The position numbers and the translations under genes are program-made. The notes beneath the pieces were generated by a model. The model searched no databases. It was not told the DNA's origin and saw only the letters and a program-made list of their open reading frames with translations. From Pseudomonadota bacterium (GTDB lineage: Bacteria > Pseudomonadota > Gammaproteobacteria > UBA4575), in contig JBCDBX010000003.1 of NCBI GenBank assembly GCA_039182865.1, positions 1,343 through 65,342 on the forward strand: DNA of 64,000 nt, read 5' to 3'. The stretch's first letter is position 1, and every line of letters starts with the position of its first letter. Shown here piece after piece: positions 33,364-42,019 of the stretch.

Positions 33364-36300
33364 TTACTTATAGCTATTCAGAAGACTACGCATTGTATTG
33401 GTATCAAATTTAATACGTAATTTTGCAAATGGTCCATCAGCTGTATATTCGGCACCACTGAAGTCATCGTCCTCAAACCCATCAAAATTATATCCAAGAC
33501 TCACCCAAACATTTTGATAAACATTGACACCTACCGATGGGCCAAATGAATATCTAAAGTTCTCAGAGTTGCTTGAATTCAAAATAGAGGTTTGGAAAGA
33601 AAGGTCAACACGACGATGAATATCATAACGATATCTAAAACCAAGTAATTGAGTAAAACCATCAAACTCATCACCATCGATATCATCAAGCACATATTTG
33701 GCACCCCAATGTATGCCTAATTGATGCAGATCATCAACAGTATAATTTAAGTTAAGATTATTAATTAGTGATCTTGAACGAATATCTAATGAATCACTTA
33801 CATCTTCACTAAATGAAAATTCTAAACGATTTAATATCGTATATGGACTATGGTCAGGTCTAAACGCAAGTGCATATGTCGCATCAGCAGTAACATTATT
33901 GCCACCGCCTTTTGTATCTGTTTCAAATATCTGAGTATCAAACGACATGCCTAAGCCTGTAAACTCTTCGCTATAGAGACCAAACAAGACACCGCGTTGT
34001 ATATCTGTGTCACTGGTACGATACTCCATCCTAGACGCTGCCGACCAATTTGTTTGCACATAATTCGCACCAAGAGAAAGCGCAGTAAAATCACCTGACA
34101 CACTTCCTGATGATAATGGAACGTTGTCATTAAATGGTGTTACACCCTCATCATTCAATGTATCCAATCTGTCAACACTGACATCTAATGACAAATGATC
34201 GTTGTATTGCCAGCCTTGCGTCAAACCCAAATTACTAAACAAGCGTTTTCCATTCTCACCTGATTGCTGTTCTACACTGGTATTAATTTCAGCCTGACTC
34301 CAAGGAATTAAACGTGTTCCAATCCGTGTTGTATTGGTATCCTGATCTTCACCTTGGGTATACTCATGTTCAGTAAATAATTCAGAAATTTCATTTAATT
34401 TATAATCCGCACCTGCAATATAACGTGTAGGATAATCAACAGAGTTGTCTGAGTTTACATCTATCTCGGCATTGGCACGCAAATTAAGTCTATTATCCAT
34501 TAACCTCTTTGCAGCTCCTGCGGTAACGAGTACAGATTCTCTATCTTCCTGTTGTGATAATTCATCTTTTGCATATGCCAAACCGGCAGCAAGACCATAT
34601 CCATTTTTATTATAGTTGAGCTCAACGTCTGCAACCGTACGTTTATTATTGTCAGATAAAACCTCATCACGAAATGCCTGACCATTGACTTCTACTGATT
34701 CATTAACACGATATCTCAGATCTGCACCATATCGTTCAGCACCATCATTGTTCTGACTTTGTTGATCTAAACCAAACCCTTCATCTTGCCTGCGGTAATA
34801 CACCAATGTATTGATTTTTTCTGTGCGGTGTTCTACTTCGGCCAATAACGCATCATTATTTTCATCACCATCTCCTGTATCAACACTACTGCGTGCTGCC
34901 TCTAAACGTACTTGAGTCTGCTCAGAAACGTTATATTCAAAATCTGCGCCAATAAGATCACCATCGGCATCTTCATCGCCCTGAGTAATAGCACTGATTC
35001 CGACTTCTATGCCGCGCTCTTTATCATATAAAGCAGCACGAATTCCGGCAGTTAATTCCTTATCTCCAGAGTTCTCTACTTCATAATCTGCAACAATAAA
35101 AACTGGATTAAAGTTTTGGTCGCGACTTGGGATCGGCTGTTTAAAGAATATCGTGCCATTATTAGTATCAATCGTGTAATCAACAAATTGTGTCAGTTGC
35201 ACATCACTGATAATTATATTGGGCTGAAATCTATCGCGTGTCACAATTGATACCTGCTCACTATTAATCACAATATCATTGTTCGATAACTGATATAGCC
35301 CCGAGGTACCATTCCCTTGAATTTCATCTTGCACAAATCTTTGATCGGTTTCAGACGCAAATGCATTAAAGCCAAATCGATTCCCCTCATATTCTGCTTT
35401 AGCGCCCGTTAAACTTCGTGTATATCTAGAGAGTTCTGTCACATCCATGTCTGTATTAAAATCACCAAATAAAGTATAAAACTGATTCTTCTCAAGTCTT
35501 ACATATAGCTTATCAGAGCTTGCGGCATCAAATTGTTGTTCAGTCGCATCTCCATAAAGCGTGTAATATTCATCTGGTGCGATTGTTTGGAATAACCTGT
35601 CATCTCTCTCGTCATCTCCACGTTCAGAGTCATAAGCCAGTGTCAACAACCATTCACCTTTAACCTGACCTTTGGCATAAAAGGCTAGGCGACCATCCTC
35701 ATAAAAATCTTCTTCAATATTATTATCACTTAAAGCACGCGCATTGCCAGAGACATTGTTATAACCTGTAGACCCCTCTGCAAGTCCAACTAAGATCCAT
35801 TCTTTTTGGACAGCTTGAATCCATGCATCTATAGATTCTTCTCGATCGTCAATAAATAAAAAATCTAGCGTTAGCTTACCGCCTAAAGTTGAAGGTTCAA
35901 TATCGATAAATGCGATACCATCTTGCTCAACTTTATATGTCAATCTACTAGAAGTAAGGCCATTCAAAGGTTGTTTGTCTAGCTCTCTTGTCTCTTGAAG
36001 CGACGTATAACCTTGAGAAAGTCCGTATTCGCCAATGATTTCTGGGCGTGCAGGGTAACCCCATTTGTCGAAAAACTTGACGGCAAGAACAATGGGGTTC
36101 TTACCATCTGCGATCAACCTTGAATATTCCGGAACTAACTGTGCTTTAATAGGCTGTCCAGAATAATGTATTGTTTGAGTAACCTGCTCCAACTGAATAT
36201 CATCTTCGCTATACGTGGTAGCAACAAAAACATTATCACCCTCTACAAGATCAACACCCTTCCAGCGATCAATTAATTTCTTCTTATCAGAACTAGTCGT

Positions 36301-40993: not shown

Positions 40994-42019
40994 TTAGTTA
41001 ATAACGACATTGAATGTAATGGTGTGATTATCCGCATTAGTTAAATCTCCTAAATTTACTGTTATGACATTTGCAGCGATAAAGCCTGCATCAGCATCTA
41101 CACTTGAATCTGTCAATGGAATTCCATTCAAAGTGATACTGCTTGGTTCATAGGTTGTATCTGTAGGTATAGCATCGGTGATGACGACATTTGCAGCTGT
41201 GTCTATACCGCTTGCAACGACATCTAATGAATATTGAATTATTGCGCCCGGGATGGGGCTACATGGAGCTGTGGTACATGACCCTCCACCAGCTGTATCG
41301 TCAATGACTTGTGCGTTTTTAGTAATATTTACATCAATCAATGATGCGACTTCGTATGTCCCTGGGGTATCGACAGATGCTTCAGTTAAACCAACCAAGG
41401 CATCAACACCACCGTCACCCAACCCAACTAAGATAGTCCCAGGTGTTGAACCTGCTGCACCCGCAGTTGTTGCATTAGCAGTTATTTCTATCAGGCCCTC
41501 ATCACCGTCAATAAGCGCTGGAGGAATATCACCAACAATAAAAATTACTTGGCTATCTACACCATTTGCATCAAGTGATACATCATTGAGGGCGGGGATA
41601 TGCTCAACATCGATACCACCCGTATCAAATACGCCATTGTTATTACTATCAATGAAAATTCTTAAATTTGTAGGATCAAAATCATCAGTTCCTATTGGTG
41701 ATGCATCAAATGCAAAAGAAAATTCTTCTATACCATTTCCAATATTAGTAACCAGAAATGTAAGCACTTGATCTAAACTGGAAGTCAAGACAAGAACATT
41801 TGAGGCATCTTGTGAAACTAAGTTTACGTCAATAATTTCTTGCACAGAGAAGACGACTGTATCAGTCGAAGTTTGTGGTGACCCATTCTGGTTATATTCC
41901 ACCGTGACAGTATTACTTATCACTGTGCCGGCAGGAGTTCCTAAGGCATATGCAGCATTATTGATTGCTATTAAAAATAGACTAATATTTATTAGATTCT
42001 GAACTATTGAGTGACGCAT
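40994..42019 (-). CDS. secreted DUF11-type repeat protein (putative surface-fibre subunit), first gene of the operon
   Basis: 341 aa with the signal peptide …IAINNAAYA. The post-signal motif GTPAGTVISNTVTVEYN is shared with the giant protein. The C-terminal DUF11-like domain reads PGAIIQYSLDVVASGIDTAANVVITDAIP…TITFNVVIN. Confidence 0.75.
   Translation of the reverse strand: MRHSIVQNLINISLFLIAINNAAYALGTPAGTVISNTVTVEYNQNGSPQTSTDTVVFSVQEIIDVNLVSQDASNVLVLTSSLDQVLTFLVTNIGNGIEEFSFAFDASPIGTDDFDPTNLRIFIDSNNNGVFDTGGIDVEHIPALNDVSLDANGVDSQVIFIVGDIPPALIDGDEGLIEITANATTAGAAGSTPGTILVGLGDGGVDALVGLTEASVDTPGTYEVASLIDVNITKNAQVIDDTAGGGSCTTAPCSPIPGAIIQYSLDVVASGIDTAANVVITDAIPTDTTYEPSSITLNGIPLTDSSVDADAGFIAANVITVNLGDLTNADNHTITFNVVIN

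What the first reader, a model, noticed from the sequence alone, without database searches (positions are those of the whole stretch)
33364..42019. Four-gene operon of secreted DUF11/Ig-fold proteins ending in a 1984-aa protein with a giant C-terminal beta-barrel: candidate undescribed surface-fibre/adhesin assembly system
What the sequence shows:
- Four co-directional minus-strand genes of 341, 171, 352 and 1984 aa, separated by gaps of only 3, 35 and 62 nt.
- All four have Sec-type signal peptides.
- All four carry the DUF11 'conserved repeat' signature (PGd.v.Y.i.v.N.G...a.dV.i.D.lP … t.tf.v.i).
- They are extremely acidic and Thr/Asp/Ser-rich.
- The last protein adds Cna-B/carboxypeptidase-regulatory-like domains and about 800 C-terminal residues with outer-membrane beta-barrel character.
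- No chaperone, usher, sortase, T1SS, TPS (POTRA) or T5 helper gene is present anywhere in the operon or its flanks.

Inference: the layout is several small Ig-fold subunits, then a stem-loop, then one large barrel-bearing protein. This resembles the subunit-plus-usher logic of chaperone-usher pili, but it is built from unrelated folds. The giant protein could be both anchor and export pore for the small DUF11 subunits. I know of no characterised system with this composition in Gammaproteobacteria.
Basis: partly seen in the sequence, partly recalled or inferred. Interest (0 to 1): 0.85.

Follow-up and report, generated by a model that had tools for sequence, protein, structure and literature searches.

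The report
Barrel-anchored fibre of split Ig-like domains
A conserved four-gene cassette, found in well over 500 species of outer-membrane-bearing bacteria and never studied, appears to build a surface fibre from three small proteins whose last Ig-like domain lacks its final strands, which the next protein's N-terminus could supply, ending in a giant protein that carries a roughly 40-strand outer-membrane barrel.

Summary
Four co-directional secreted DUF11 (now "CLIPPER") proteins of 341, 171 (probably 167), 352 and 1984 aa lie at 33364-42019 on the minus strand.

- **Conservation.** The order A-B-C-D recurs in 58 related loci from several phyla, in unrelated neighbourhoods. None of the four neighbourhoods whose genes were listed holds a chaperone, usher, sortase or POTRA gene.
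- **Split domain.** A, B and C all end exactly at the strand after which a complete CLIPPER domain has two more strands. A, C and D begin, right after the signal peptide, with a conserved hairpin motif that directly follows that strand in an unsplit domain of a related protein.
- **Conserved residues.** The Lys and Asp of the isopeptide triad are conserved in the truncated domains of A and C. The matching Asn is conserved in the N-terminal motifs of C and D.
- **Tip-like proteins.** Many loci add large proteins with the truncated domain but no N-terminal motif.

Best model: a strand-complemented, possibly covalently locked fibre, tip(B/T)←A←C←D, anchored and perhaps exported by D's barrel. Trans pairing, covalent bonding and export are inferred, not shown. 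I found no description in the literature.

The parts
40994..42019 (-). gA, a 341-aa secreted subunit: signal peptide 1-25, N-terminal extension, middle Ig-like domain, C-terminal truncated CLIPPER domain.
   Evidence: ORF. TIGR01451 34.9 bits. 277 homologues. It occupies the first position of the module in 58 loci.
41840..41944 (-). gA N-terminal extension (residues 26-60, 'LGTPAGTVISNTVTVEY...DTVVFSVQ'), the putative donor hairpin. The Asn is N36.
   Evidence: The motif is conserved directly after the cleavage site in family A. The N-extension HMM hits here at 5e-13. The Asn is conserved in only 43 of 56 loci.
40997..41344 (-). gA C-terminal truncated CLIPPER domain (residues 226-341), the putative acceptor. 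It holds Lys234, the only Lys in the mature protein, and Asp282, and ends '...HTITFNVVIN-COOH'.
   Evidence: The Pfam DUF11 match stops at profile position 82 of 114, at the protein's end. 55 of 59 family members end in the same column. Lys is conserved in 58/59 and Asp in 57/59. Lys count.
40475..40990 (-). gB, 171 aa from TTG (probably 167 aa from the ATG at 40978). After the signal peptide it is a single truncated CLIPPER-like domain with no donor motif. It is the putative cap, a headless tip.
   Evidence: homologues are 167 aa. The C-domain HMM hits up to the C-terminus, and the N-extension HMM gives no hit. 57 of 59 members end in the same column. An Asn replaces the catalytic Asp in 56/59. 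Its C-terminal motif 'DYTxIRW...' resembles the C-domains of the large tip-like proteins.
39381..40439 (-). gC, a 352-aa secreted subunit and paralogue of gA: signal peptide 1-29, N-terminal extension 30-82 (40194-40352, Asn40), truncated C-terminal CLIPPER domain 243-352 (39384-39713, Lys250, Asp297).
   Evidence: gA versus gC BLASTP gives 3e-11 over the full length. Pfam DUF11 covers residues 261-348, profile positions 4-83 of 114. Asn40 is conserved in 58/59, Lys250 in 58/59, and Asp297 is 56 D plus 3 E. 48 of 59 members end in the same column.
39327..39349 (-). GC-rich stem-loop (UGCGCGGAC-AUGAA-GUCCGCGCA) in the 62-nt gap between gC and gD, with no U-tract.
   Evidence: Sequence. Fold of -24 kcal/mol with z = -4.6. 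Not called a terminator. Its function was not tested. It may set the ratio of subunit to giant-protein expression.
33364..39318 (-). gD, the 1984-aa giant protein: long signal peptide (1-54), donor motif, stalk of Ig-like domains, disordered linker, two Ig-like domains, giant barrel.
39034..39156 (-). gD N-terminal extension (residues 55-95, 'VPPGTVISNTAVANYDV...NTVDVTT'), with Asn63. gD has a donor motif but no truncated acceptor domain.
   Evidence: An N-extension HMM built only from families A and C hits gD 56-85 at 1e-8. Asn63 is conserved in 54 of 56 loci and in at least 90% of alignment A3. AF2 models it as a confident hairpin.
36592..39033 (-). gD stalk (residues 96-909), a string of Ig-like domains. 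It includes one complete CLIPPER domain (388-515, window 37774-38157) with the triad Lys394, Asp428 and Asn494, plus CarboxypepD_reg-like and SdrD_B-like domains.
   Evidence: AF2 pLDDT 87.1. Pfam hits. The triad is at least 90% conserved. Foldseek hits multi-Ig stalks, including the Gram-positive pilin BcpA and SdrD.
36439..36591 (-). Disordered linker (about residues 910-960). Most relatives carry an OmpA-like peptidoglycan-binding domain at this position.
   Evidence: pLDDT below 50 at the end of the N-half model and the start of the C-half model. P0008 has OmpA at 912-1014. PF00691 is present in most homologues.
35812..36435 (-). Two Ig-like beta-sandwich domains (residues 962-1169) just before the barrel, presumed periplasmic.
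   Evidence: AF2 model residues 23-113 and 119-230, pLDDT about 90. Their location is inferred from the adjacent OmpA domain in relatives.
33403..35796 (-). Giant beta-barrel region (residues 1175-1972), about 40 long strands. It contains a conserved short-strand insert (residues ~1335-1400, window 35119-35316) that may act as a plug.

Best explanation
The four genes encode one multi-protein, beads-on-a-string fibre made of CLIPPER (DUF11) and related Ig-like domains. An outer-membrane barrel holds it in the cell envelope.

**Shown by the sequence**
- gA, gB and gC each end with a CLIPPER domain that stops two strands short of a complete domain.
- gA, gC and gD each begin, right after signal-peptide cleavage, with a two-strand hairpin. 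Its sequence is what follows that stop point in an unsplit domain.
- gD has the donor motif but no acceptor domain. gB has an acceptor domain but no detectable donor motif. The large 'T' proteins next to the module in other genomes are likewise acceptor-only.

**Inferred**
- After Sec export, the N-terminal hairpin of one protein completes the truncated domain of another.
- The conservation pattern suggests the order tip (gB, or a T adhesin where present) ← gA ← gC ← gD.
- The A←C and C←D junctions have a fully conserved Lys (strand 1), Asp and donor Asn. This is the CLIPPER isopeptide triad, now divided between two chains. The two junctions could therefore lock covalently and spontaneously, as in SpyTag/SpyCatcher.
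- The gB junction lacks the Asp and would be non-covalent.
- gD then acts as built-in terminator, proximal stalk and anchor. Its C-terminal half, two Ig-like domains plus a barrel of about 40 strands with a conserved internal insert, sits in the outer membrane. In relatives an OmpA-like domain ties it to peptidoglycan.
- The barrel is wide enough in principle to let the stalk and attached subunits pass, so gD would be its own usher.
For: 1. **A real, widespread unit.** The order A-B-C-D is found in 58 loci across several phyla, with different neighbours. At least 570 species hits were found. The C-half family has 1,444 representatives at E<=1e-30.
2. **Truncated acceptors.**
   - Pfam DUF11 matches stop at profile positions 82-83 of 114 at the C-terminus of gA and gC. 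gB's Pfam match is shorter (profile 4-63), but the module's own C-domain model reaches its C-terminus.
   - 55/59, 57/59 and 48/59 members of families A, B and C end in the same alignment column.
   - In the AF2 model of gD's complete CLIPPER domain, the equivalent strand ('VTVKYVVEVS') is followed by two more strands, one of which carries Asn494.
3. **Donor motif.**
   - 'GT(P/A)AGTxIxNxAxVxY...SN...V' lies directly after the cleavage site in families A, C and D.
   - An HMM built from A and C alone finds gD's N-terminus at 1e-8.
4. **The split point is explicit.** A 941-aa protein beside the module in L050 contains the contiguous sequence '...TATIVFDVTIA|AGTPAGTTIDNLATVT...' inside a complete domain.
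5. **Triad split over two chains**.
   - Acceptor Lys is conserved in 58/59 (A) and 58/59 (C).
   - Acceptor Asp is conserved in 57/59 (A) and 56 D + 3 E of 59 (C).
   - Donor Asn is conserved in 58/59 (C) and 54/56 (D).
   - No conserved Asn lies within the truncated domains.
   - Mature gA has a single Lys, the conserved one.
   - The roles of the triad residues are taken from PDB 9IFR (PMC12617251).
6. **Against pairing within one chain.**
   - gA's own Asn is lost in 13 loci, 12 of which keep gA's Lys and Asp.
   - About 19 of the fetched loci add large proteins with the truncated, Asp-bearing domain and no donor motif. These cannot be completed by their own chain.
7. **The anchor is an outer-membrane barrel**.
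8. **No helper genes** are present.
Against: 1. **My own test failed.** I predicted that a free donor in gD would have low AF2 confidence. The motif is instead modelled confidently (pLDDT about 88) as a hairpin. It may pack onto gD's first domain within the same chain. I could not inspect coordinates.
2. **Statistical tests did not support the link.**
   - Appending the motif to the truncated domains extended Pfam coverage to position ~109/114 but did not raise the score, and a reversed control also extended.
   - hhalign between the motif and the end of a complete domain was not significant.
   - The identification rests on the L050 example and on pattern matching.
3. **No complex was modelled.** Pairing order, covalent bonding and stoichiometry are therefore all inferred from conservation alone.
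4. **No compensating losses were seen.** Loci with a lost Lys or Asn show no matching loss in the proposed partner.
5. **Surface location is unproven.** The mid-protein OmpA domain of relatives shows that the junction is periplasmic, and the stalk could be periplasmic too.
6. **gB's N-terminus is ambiguous.** Pfam places strand 1 at residues 56-60, which would leave an atypical N-terminal strand.
7. **One exception.** L017 has the giant gene with 9 kb of upstream DNA and no A, B or C.
Confidence: 0.5

Rival explanations
1. Circular permutation within one chain. In gA and gC the N-terminal hairpin completes the truncated C-terminal domain of the same protein. In gD it packs on the first stalk domain. 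gD is then a self-sufficient, autotransporter-like giant adhesin. gA, gB and gC are separate secreted or periplasmic accessory proteins, such as coat, matrix or chaperone-like factors, that are merely co-expressed.
For: - AF2 models gD's N-terminal motif confidently, not as a floppy tail.
- AF2 monomer behaviour and the Pfam chimera test do not separate cis from trans.
- The cassette holds no dedicated chaperone, which a self-complemented subunit would not need.
Against: - gA's own Asn is lost in 13 loci, and 12 of them keep gA's Lys and Asp.
- gB and the T-class proteins have the truncated domain but no donor motif of their own.
- gD has a donor motif but no truncated domain.
- In gA the hairpin runs straight into the first strand of the middle domain with no linker, as at a junction in a tandem array.
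- Strict four-gene co-inheritance across phyla suggests physical interaction.
Confidence: 0.25
2. A periplasmic or envelope-spanning structure rather than a surface fibre. The stalk of gD and the attached subunits stay in the periplasm, with the OmpA domain on peptidoglycan. The barrel would then only anchor the assembly in the outer membrane or serve another transport role.
For: - In most relatives a peptidoglycan-binding OmpA domain sits between the stalk and the barrel half, so that part of the chain is periplasmic.
- No experiment places any of the proteins on the surface.
Against: - A stalk of about seven Ig-like domains plus three more subunits would be much longer than the periplasm is wide. 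This is an inference from the domain count.
- Characterised CLIPPER proteins are extracellular adhesin stalks (PMC12617251).
- T-class partners carry large N-terminal, adhesin-like regions.
- gA and gC are almost free of Lys and Arg, as is common in exposed proteins (weak evidence).
- A barrel of about 40 strands is far larger than anchoring alone needs.
Confidence: 0.12
3. A divergent member of an already characterised pathway: chaperone-usher, type V secretion, type V pili or sortase pili.
For: - An inserted conserved domain within the barrel recalls the usher plug.
Against: - No Usher, PapD, Autotransporter, POTRA, sortase or fimbrial Pfam/NCBIfam hit appears in the four proteins or the flanks.
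- The barrel has about 40 strands, against 24 for ushers, 12 for autotransporters and 16 for two-partner transporters.
- The C-termini lack LPXTG.
Confidence: 0.04

Closest known systems
Chaperone-usher pili (type 1 / P pili: FimA-H, FimC, FimD; PapA-K, PapD, PapC)
   Same: - The logic matches. Sec-exported Ig-like subunits have an incomplete fold and an N-terminal donor extension.
- There is an acceptor-only tip adhesin, subunits that are both donor and acceptor, and a donor-only terminator.
- A large outer-membrane barrel has Ig-like periplasmic domains and an inserted domain.
- A stem-loop separates the subunit genes from the large gene.
   Different: - No PapD-like chaperone and no Usher family match.
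- The subunit fold is CLIPPER/CnaA-like, lacking two strands rather than one.
- The terminator is fused to the barrel.
- The barrel has about 40 strands rather than 24.
- The junctions may be covalent.
Archaeal 'thread' filaments of Sulfolobus acidocaldarius (PMC9715654), and the related chaperone-free donor-strand fibres TasA, archaeal bundling pili and tafi (PMC9674648, PMC9245690, PMC11821415)
   Same: - Donor-strand complementation works without a dedicated chaperone.
- In threads, isopeptide bonds between subunits reinforce the fibre.
   Different: - These are monoderm or archaeal systems with no outer-membrane barrel.
- The subunit folds are unrelated.
- They are homopolymers, not a defined hetero-assembly ending in a membrane protein.
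Single-chain CLIPPER/DUF11 fibrillar adhesins (Acinetobacter silvestris B9T28_05395, PDB 9IFR, PMC12617251; Litorilinea GhlA with 49 DUF11 domains, bioRxiv 2025.08.19.671072)
   Same: - Same domain family, in a beads-on-a-string stalk.
- Lys-Asp-Asn isopeptide triad.
- OmpA-like anchor domain in the Acinetobacter protein, as in relatives of gD.
   Different: - Those are one polypeptide with intramolecular bonds. Here the chain is cut inside domains and spread over four genes.
- No giant barrel has been described for them.
Sortase-assembled Gram-positive pili (SpaA, BcpA) and SpyTag/SpyCatcher
   Same: - Covalent Lys-linked fibres of CnaA/CnaB-type domains.
- The gD stalk resembles BcpA and SdrD by Foldseek.
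- A split isopeptide domain that re-forms and locks is the engineered SpyTag/SpyCatcher principle.
   Different: - No sortase, LPXTG or pilin motif.
- The host has an outer membrane.
- The proposed bond would form spontaneously in a reconstituted domain, not by transpeptidation.
- No natural split CLIPPER domain turned up in the literature searches.
Very large single-chain outer-membrane barrels (Deinococcus SlpA, 30 strands, 7zgx; SprA of the type 9 translocon, 36 strands, 6h3i)
   Different: - Only 9-11% sequence identity and no sequence-family link.
- Different domain context and partners.

Membership tests
CLIPPER / DUF11 domain family (PF01345, TIGR01451) | A significant match to the family profile | tested here: met
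   TIGR01451 is above its 24-bit cut-off in all four proteins (50.1, 38.2, 32.7 and 34.9 bits). PF01345 is above its 24.6-bit cut-off in gD and gC, and just below it in gA and gB.
CLIPPER / DUF11 domain family (PF01345, TIGR01451) | A complete CnaA-like fold with an intramolecular Lys-Asn isopeptide bond catalysed by Asp (as in 9IFR) | tested here: inconclusive
   gD 388-515 is complete, and its Lys, Asp and Asn are each at least 90% conserved. The domains of gA, gB and gC are truncated and hold no conserved Asn of their own. Bond formation cannot be tested in silico here.
Chaperone-usher pili | A PapD-like periplasmic chaperone gene in the cluster | tested here: not met
   No such Pfam hit in the four proteins or in the flanking ORFs of the window, nor in the gene lists of L001-L004.
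Chaperone-usher pili | An usher protein (PF00577): 24-strand barrel with plug, N-terminal and C-terminal domains | tested here: not met
Chaperone-usher pili | [quoted passage not shown] | tested here: inconclusive
   An analogous split is seen, in a different fold. Trans pairing was not demonstrated.
Type V secretion (classical autotransporter, two-partner, inverse autotransporter) | A 12-strand C-terminal barrel (Va), a POTRA-bearing 16-strand partner (Vb), or an N-terminal barrel with LysM (Ve) | tested here: not met
   No PF03797, POTRA or LysM hits. The barrel region is about 800 residues and about 40 strands.
Sortase-dependent pili | A sortase gene and an LPXTG sorting signal with a membrane anchor on the subunits | tested here: not met
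   The C-termini are ...NVVIN...RVVLK and ...DAVIQ, with no LPXTG or hydrophobic tail. No sortase in the flanks.
Type V pili of Bacteroidia (FimA/Mfa) | Lipoprotein precursors, proteolytic maturation, and C-terminal donor strands | tested here: not met
   The signal peptides are type I (AxA, with no lipobox Cys). The conserved extension is N-terminal.
OmpA-anchored outer-membrane proteins | An OmpA_C-like peptidoglycan-binding domain (PF00691) | tested here: not met
   Absent from the window's gD at E<=0.1. Present in most relatives, in mid-protein. The window protein has a disordered linker there instead.
The conserved A-B-C-D module itself (unnamed) | Gene order: two-domain subunit, single-domain subunit, two-domain subunit, giant barrel protein, with the donor and acceptor features described | tested here: met
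   The window matches all features. 58 other loci share them.

The most novel reading that the evidence does not exclude
Bacteria with an outer membrane possess a widespread, previously unrecognised class of covalent surface fibre. CLIPPER domains are split between polypeptides and re-formed by strand donation. They are then locked by spontaneous Lys-Asn isopeptide bonds between chains, a natural SpyTag/SpyCatcher. No sortase or chaperone is needed. The assembly is exported and anchored by a barrel of about 40 strands fused to the terminating subunit, which would be among the largest single-chain barrels known.
Probability: 0.3. Interest if true: 0.92.

Novelty: categorically new. Interest (0 to 1): 0.82.

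Why it matters
- **A new route to surface fibres.** If the model is right, this is a further way for Gram-negative bacteria to build a surface fibre, beside chaperone-usher, type IV, curli, type V pili and others. None of its components is homologous to theirs.
- **Covalent pili without sortase.** It would show that covalently linked pili are not limited to sortase-bearing Gram-positive bacteria.
- **An evolutionary example.** It shows how one long repeat adhesin can be cut inside its domains into separately encoded, self-assembling parts.
- **Ecological reach.** The module is common in environmental lineages that are hard to culture: Woeseiaceae, Steroidobacteraceae, Thiotrichaceae, Geobacter relatives, Nitrospirota and iron- and nitrite-oxidising Burkholderiales. 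It could therefore matter for attachment to particles, minerals and sediment.
- **Practical uses.** Natural split, self-ligating CLIPPER pairs would be new orthogonal protein-ligation tags. The giant barrel is a new test case for how BAM folds very large barrels and how folded domains cross the outer membrane.

Tried and rejected
1. **Pfam chimera test.** I appended N-terminal motifs to the truncated domains. Coverage extended to profile position ~109/114 but the score did not rise, and a reversed-sequence control also extended. Only DUF7619 scores rose modestly. Inconclusive.
2. **hhalign of the motif against the end of gD's complete domain.** Not significant (E 0.08, 17 columns).
3. **Read-through gA-stop-gB as a natural single-chain fusion for AF2.** In the fusion alignment with the stop replaced, MAFFT placed the gA-family C-domains on gB. 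That confirmed their homology but made the alignment unusable.
4. **Prediction that gD's donor motif would have low pLDDT.** Not met.
5. **Correlated loss of Lys and Asn between proposed partners.** No signal. Presence of a T gene against gA's Asn gives 16/18 versus 27/38, which is not convincing.
6. **Sequence searches of the PDB with gD, gA and gD's CLIPPER domain.** No real hits, and 9IFR was not recovered.
7. **The afdb50 fold library was unavailable,** so no named cultured-organism relatives came from that route.
8. **Literature.** Nine searches and reading of six papers. The 'DUF11' hit in the Brucella envelope review was DUF1134. The F-ENA and tafi papers concern other folds.
9. **Known classes considered and rejected:** chaperone-usher, type V secretion, sortase pili and type V pili. 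See the membership table.
10. **A remnant of the extra tip gene of the closest relative** was sought in the 440-bp gap upstream of gA. None was found.

Full report
**1. What is in the window**

Four ORFs lie head to tail on the minus strand:

| Gene | Coordinates | Length |
|---|---|---|
| gA | 40994-42019 | 341 aa |
| gB | 40475-40990 | 171 aa from TTG |
| gC | 39381-40439 | 352 aa |
| gD | 33364-39318 | 1984 aa |

- The gaps between them are 3, 35 and 62 nt.
- Most gB homologues are 167 aa, so gB probably starts at the ATG at 40978.
- The identical proteins occur in a public metagenome-assembled genome labelled only 'Pseudomonadota bacterium'.
- Each protein has an N-terminal hydrophobic segment ending in an AxA-type site. 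In 58 related loci that site lies directly before a conserved motif. No signal-peptide predictor was available.
- NCBIfam TIGR01451 (the DUF11 repeat) passes its cut-off in all four. Pfam PF01345 passes in gD and gC and falls just short in gA and gB.
- gD also has a CarboxypepD_reg match above cut-off, a sub-threshold SdrD_B match and a weak OMP_b-brl match.
- Mature gA and gC have pI 4.05 and almost no Lys or Arg. gB is less extreme.
- The 62-nt gap before gD holds a strong GC-rich hairpin without a U-tract.
- The flanking genes are housekeeping: an MFS-acyltransferase-acyl-ACP synthetase fusion, an ABM monooxygenase, DUF454, a TerB-DnaJ protein and a zinc-uptake cluster. None is a chaperone, usher, sortase, T1SS or POTRA gene.

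**2. The giant protein**

*C-terminal half.* The C-terminal ~1040 residues are the best-conserved part: 59% identity to the closest relative, against 46% for the N-terminal half.

- AF2 on residues 940-1984, with 43 homologues in the alignment, gave pLDDT 82.5 and pTM 0.75.
- The model shows two Ig-like sandwiches, then about 40 long beta-strands.
- A short-strand insert (gD ~1335-1400) interrupts the strands. Most invariant residues of the family lie in it or beside it.
- The region is therefore a very large barrel with no close structural relative. No Pfam or NCBIfam model covers it.
Barrel closure and pore size are therefore inferred.

*N-terminal half.* AF2 on residues 50-945 gave pLDDT 87.1.

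- It is a string of Ig-like domains. Foldseek matches multi-Ig stalks, including the Gram-positive pilin BcpA, SdrD, UafA and alpha-2-macroglobulins.
- It contains one complete CLIPPER domain (388-515). Its Lys394, Asp428 and Asn494 are each at least 90% conserved.
- These correspond to the isopeptide triad solved in PDB 9IFR (PMC12617251).

*The junction.* Residues ~910-960 are disordered. Most relatives carry an OmpA-like peptidoglycan-binding domain at exactly this place: P0008 residues 912-1014, and PF00691 in most hits. The junction between stalk and barrel half is therefore periplasmic.

**3. The cassette is a conserved unit**

- These are mostly uncultured: Steroidobacteraceae, Woeseiaceae, Thiotrichaceae, Desulfuromonadales/Geobacter, Nitrospirota, Lentisphaeria, Verrucomicrobiota, Gallionella, Nitrotoga and Methylophilaceae.
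- An exhaustive phmmer search of 1.84 billion cluster representatives gave 1,444 proteins at E<=1e-30 and 3,490 at E<=1e-3. In the full-length hits among the 150 listed, the region sits at the C-terminus.
- Among 84 fetched loci, 58 have the full A-like, B, C-like, D order. Nearly all the others are contigs cut short upstream.
- Exceptions: L017 has no A, B or C; L046, L060 and L080 have only B, C and D; L047 has the order A, C, B.
- The neighbours differ completely between genomes.
- The closest relative (L001) is syntenic with the window but has an extra 798-aa gene upstream of gA. The window holds no remnant of it.

**4. Split CLIPPER domains**

*(a) Truncated acceptors.*
- In gA and gC the DUF11 match ends at profile position ~82-83 of 114, exactly at the protein's C-terminus. 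gB's Pfam match is shorter (profile 4-63), but the module's own C-domain model reaches its C-terminus.
- Across the 58 loci, 55/59, 57/59 and 48/59 members of families A, B and C end in the same alignment column, '...tItFdVtI(N/D/Q/K)-COOH'.
- In gD's complete domain the equivalent strand ('VTVKYVVEVS') is followed by two further strands. The first of these ('GNAINTVFAT') carries the isopeptide Asn.

*(b) Donor motif.*
- gA, gC and gD begin, immediately after signal-peptide cleavage, with 'GT(P/A)AGTxIxNxAxVxY ... SN ... V.E'.
- An HMM built from families A and C alone finds gD residues 56-85 at 1e-8.
- Nothing else in the 64-kb window matches the motif.

*(c) The split point.* In a 941-aa multi-CLIPPER protein next to the module in L050, an unsplit domain reads '...TATIVFDVTIA-AGTPAGTTIDNLATVT-NPSG...'. 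The small proteins' C-terminal strand is therefore followed directly by the motif that opens gA, gC and gD.

*(d) The catalytic triad is divided between chains*.

| Feature | Family A | Family C | Family D |
|---|---|---|---|
| Strand-1 Lys in truncated domain | 58/59 | 58/59 | no truncated domain |
| Asp in truncated domain | 57/59 | 56 D + 3 E of 59 | no truncated domain |
| Asn in N-terminal motif | 43/56 | 58/59 | 54/56 |

No conserved Asn lies inside the truncated domains. Mature gA contains one Lys in 316 residues, and it is the conserved one.

*(e) gB differs.* It has no donor-motif hit. An Asn replaces the Asp in 56/59 members, and its Lys is poorly conserved.

*(f) Tip-like proteins.*
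- About 19 of the fetched loci carry one more large protein of 550-1215 aa, next to the module on either strand.
- These have a signal peptide, no donor motif and the same truncated, Asp-bearing C-terminal domain.
- Their C-domain resembles gB (shared '...YD.NVT.IRI.P.G.F' versus 'DYTxIRW' region).

**5. Reading**

Each protein looks like a slice of a tandem CLIPPER array cut inside a domain rather than between domains. The parts sort as follows:

- gA and gC carry both a donor and an acceptor.
- gD carries a donor only.
- gB and the T proteins carry an acceptor only.

This is the division of labour in chaperone-usher pili: tip adhesin, adaptor or rod subunits, and terminator. Here it uses an unrelated fold, and the terminator is fused to the barrel.

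The conservation pattern fits one order, tip(gB or T) ← gA ← gC ← gD:

- The two fully conserved Asn donors (C and D) match the two fully conserved Lys/Asp acceptors (A and C).
- The partly conserved Asn of gA matches gB, which lacks the Asp.

Two points argue against each protein completing itself:

- gA's Asn is lost in 13 loci, 12 of which keep gA's Lys and Asp.
- The acceptor-only proteins have nothing of their own to complete them.

If the triad works as it does in intact CLIPPER domains, the A←C and C←D junctions would form spontaneous isopeptide bonds between chains.

**6. What is not shown**

- I could not model a complex.
- My one discriminating prediction failed. I expected a free donor in gD to have low confidence, but the motif is modelled as a confident hairpin. 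The strand pattern 11-14/17-22 against 25-30/34-37 suggests that the two strands pair with each other. Whether the hairpin also docks on gD's first domain cannot be told without coordinates.
- Two profile-based tests of 'motif = missing strands' were inconclusive or non-significant.
- Surface exposure, passage through the barrel, stoichiometry and any homopolymerisation are all untested.
- The periplasmic OmpA domain of relatives fits a chain that exits through its own barrel and is tied to the wall just below it. It also allows a fully periplasmic stalk.

**7. Comparison with known systems**

- The module fails the defining tests for chaperone-usher pili, type V secretion, sortase pili and Bacteroidia type V pili (see the membership table).
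- It works most like chaperone-usher pili in its logic.
- It works most like archaeal threads in chemistry: donor-strand complementation plus isopeptide bonds, with no chaperone (PMC9715654).
- Its domains belong to the CLIPPER family, whose characterised members are single-chain adhesin stalks (PMC12617251; Litorilinea GhlA).
- Nine full-text searches found no paper on this cassette, on split CLIPPER domains or on the barrel family. The library does not hold most subscription-journal papers, so prior description cannot be fully excluded.

**8. Verdict**

It now has a specific, testable mechanism.
- Confidence by step:
  - about 0.9 that the four genes form one conserved functional unit;
  - about 0.85 that gD ends in a giant outer-membrane barrel;
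  - about 0.5 for assembly by trans strand complementation;
  - about 0.3-0.35 each for covalent inter-chain locking and for export through gD's own barrel.
- Interest is high (0.82). The system is widespread, unannotated and unrelated to the known pilus machineries. Co-expression and mass-spectrometry experiments could test the key claim directly.

Noticed in passing
window 40475-40990 and 33364-39318: The public annotation of the identical MAG proteins seems to use wrong starts. gB is annotated as 143 aa, starting at Met29, which removes the signal peptide. gD is annotated as 1941 aa, which cuts into its signal peptide. Homologues support 167 aa for gB (ATG at 40978) and the long form of gD, with an unusually long signal peptide of about 54 residues.
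   Followed up: partly
L001:2869-5265; L004:1588-5235; L050:1337-4162; also L009, L019, L020, L022, L023, L029, L031, L041-L043, L048, L049, L052, L057, L059, L073: A fifth, variable gene often accompanies the cassette. It encodes a large secreted protein (550-1215 aa) with diverse N-terminal regions, no donor motif and the same truncated C-terminal CLIPPER domain. It is probably an exchangeable tip adhesin. Some of these share an N-terminal 'GT.V.L..S.AGN..F..TGG' motif that I did not identify. The 64-kb window has none.
   Followed up: partly
window 44510-48454 (+ strand): A probable zinc-uptake cluster: Fur-family regulator, MerC-like membrane protein, ZrgA, ABC ATPase, FtsX/MacB-type permease and DUF3299. 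It is unrelated to the finding.
   Followed up: no
window 29451-32873 (- strand): A 1140-aa three-part fusion of an MFS transporter, an acyltransferase and an AMP-binding enzyme. It resembles an LplT-Aas lysophospholipid recycling fusion and is conserved beside the cassette in the closest relative L001.
   Followed up: no
window 35119-35316 (gD residues ~1335-1400): The most invariant stretch of the whole giant-protein family ('DEIxGxGTSGLYxLS...TRDRF...DYxID...GTLxF..P') is a short-strand insert inside the barrel region, not a membrane strand. Its position recalls the plug domain of ushers, but no homology was detected.
   Followed up: partly
L017 (CP070719.1, 'bacterium isolate bin47' chromosome): A giant-protein homologue with 9 kb of upstream DNA shows no detectable gA, gB or gC. 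It is the one clear exception to the co-occurrence rule. The subunit genes may lie elsewhere in that genome or be too divergent to detect.
   Followed up: no
window 24562-25026 and 43250-44035: Two TerB-domain proteins lie in the window, one fused to a DnaJ domain (DjlA-like). The DjlA-like gene and DUF454 flank the cassette in both the window and L001.
   Followed up: no
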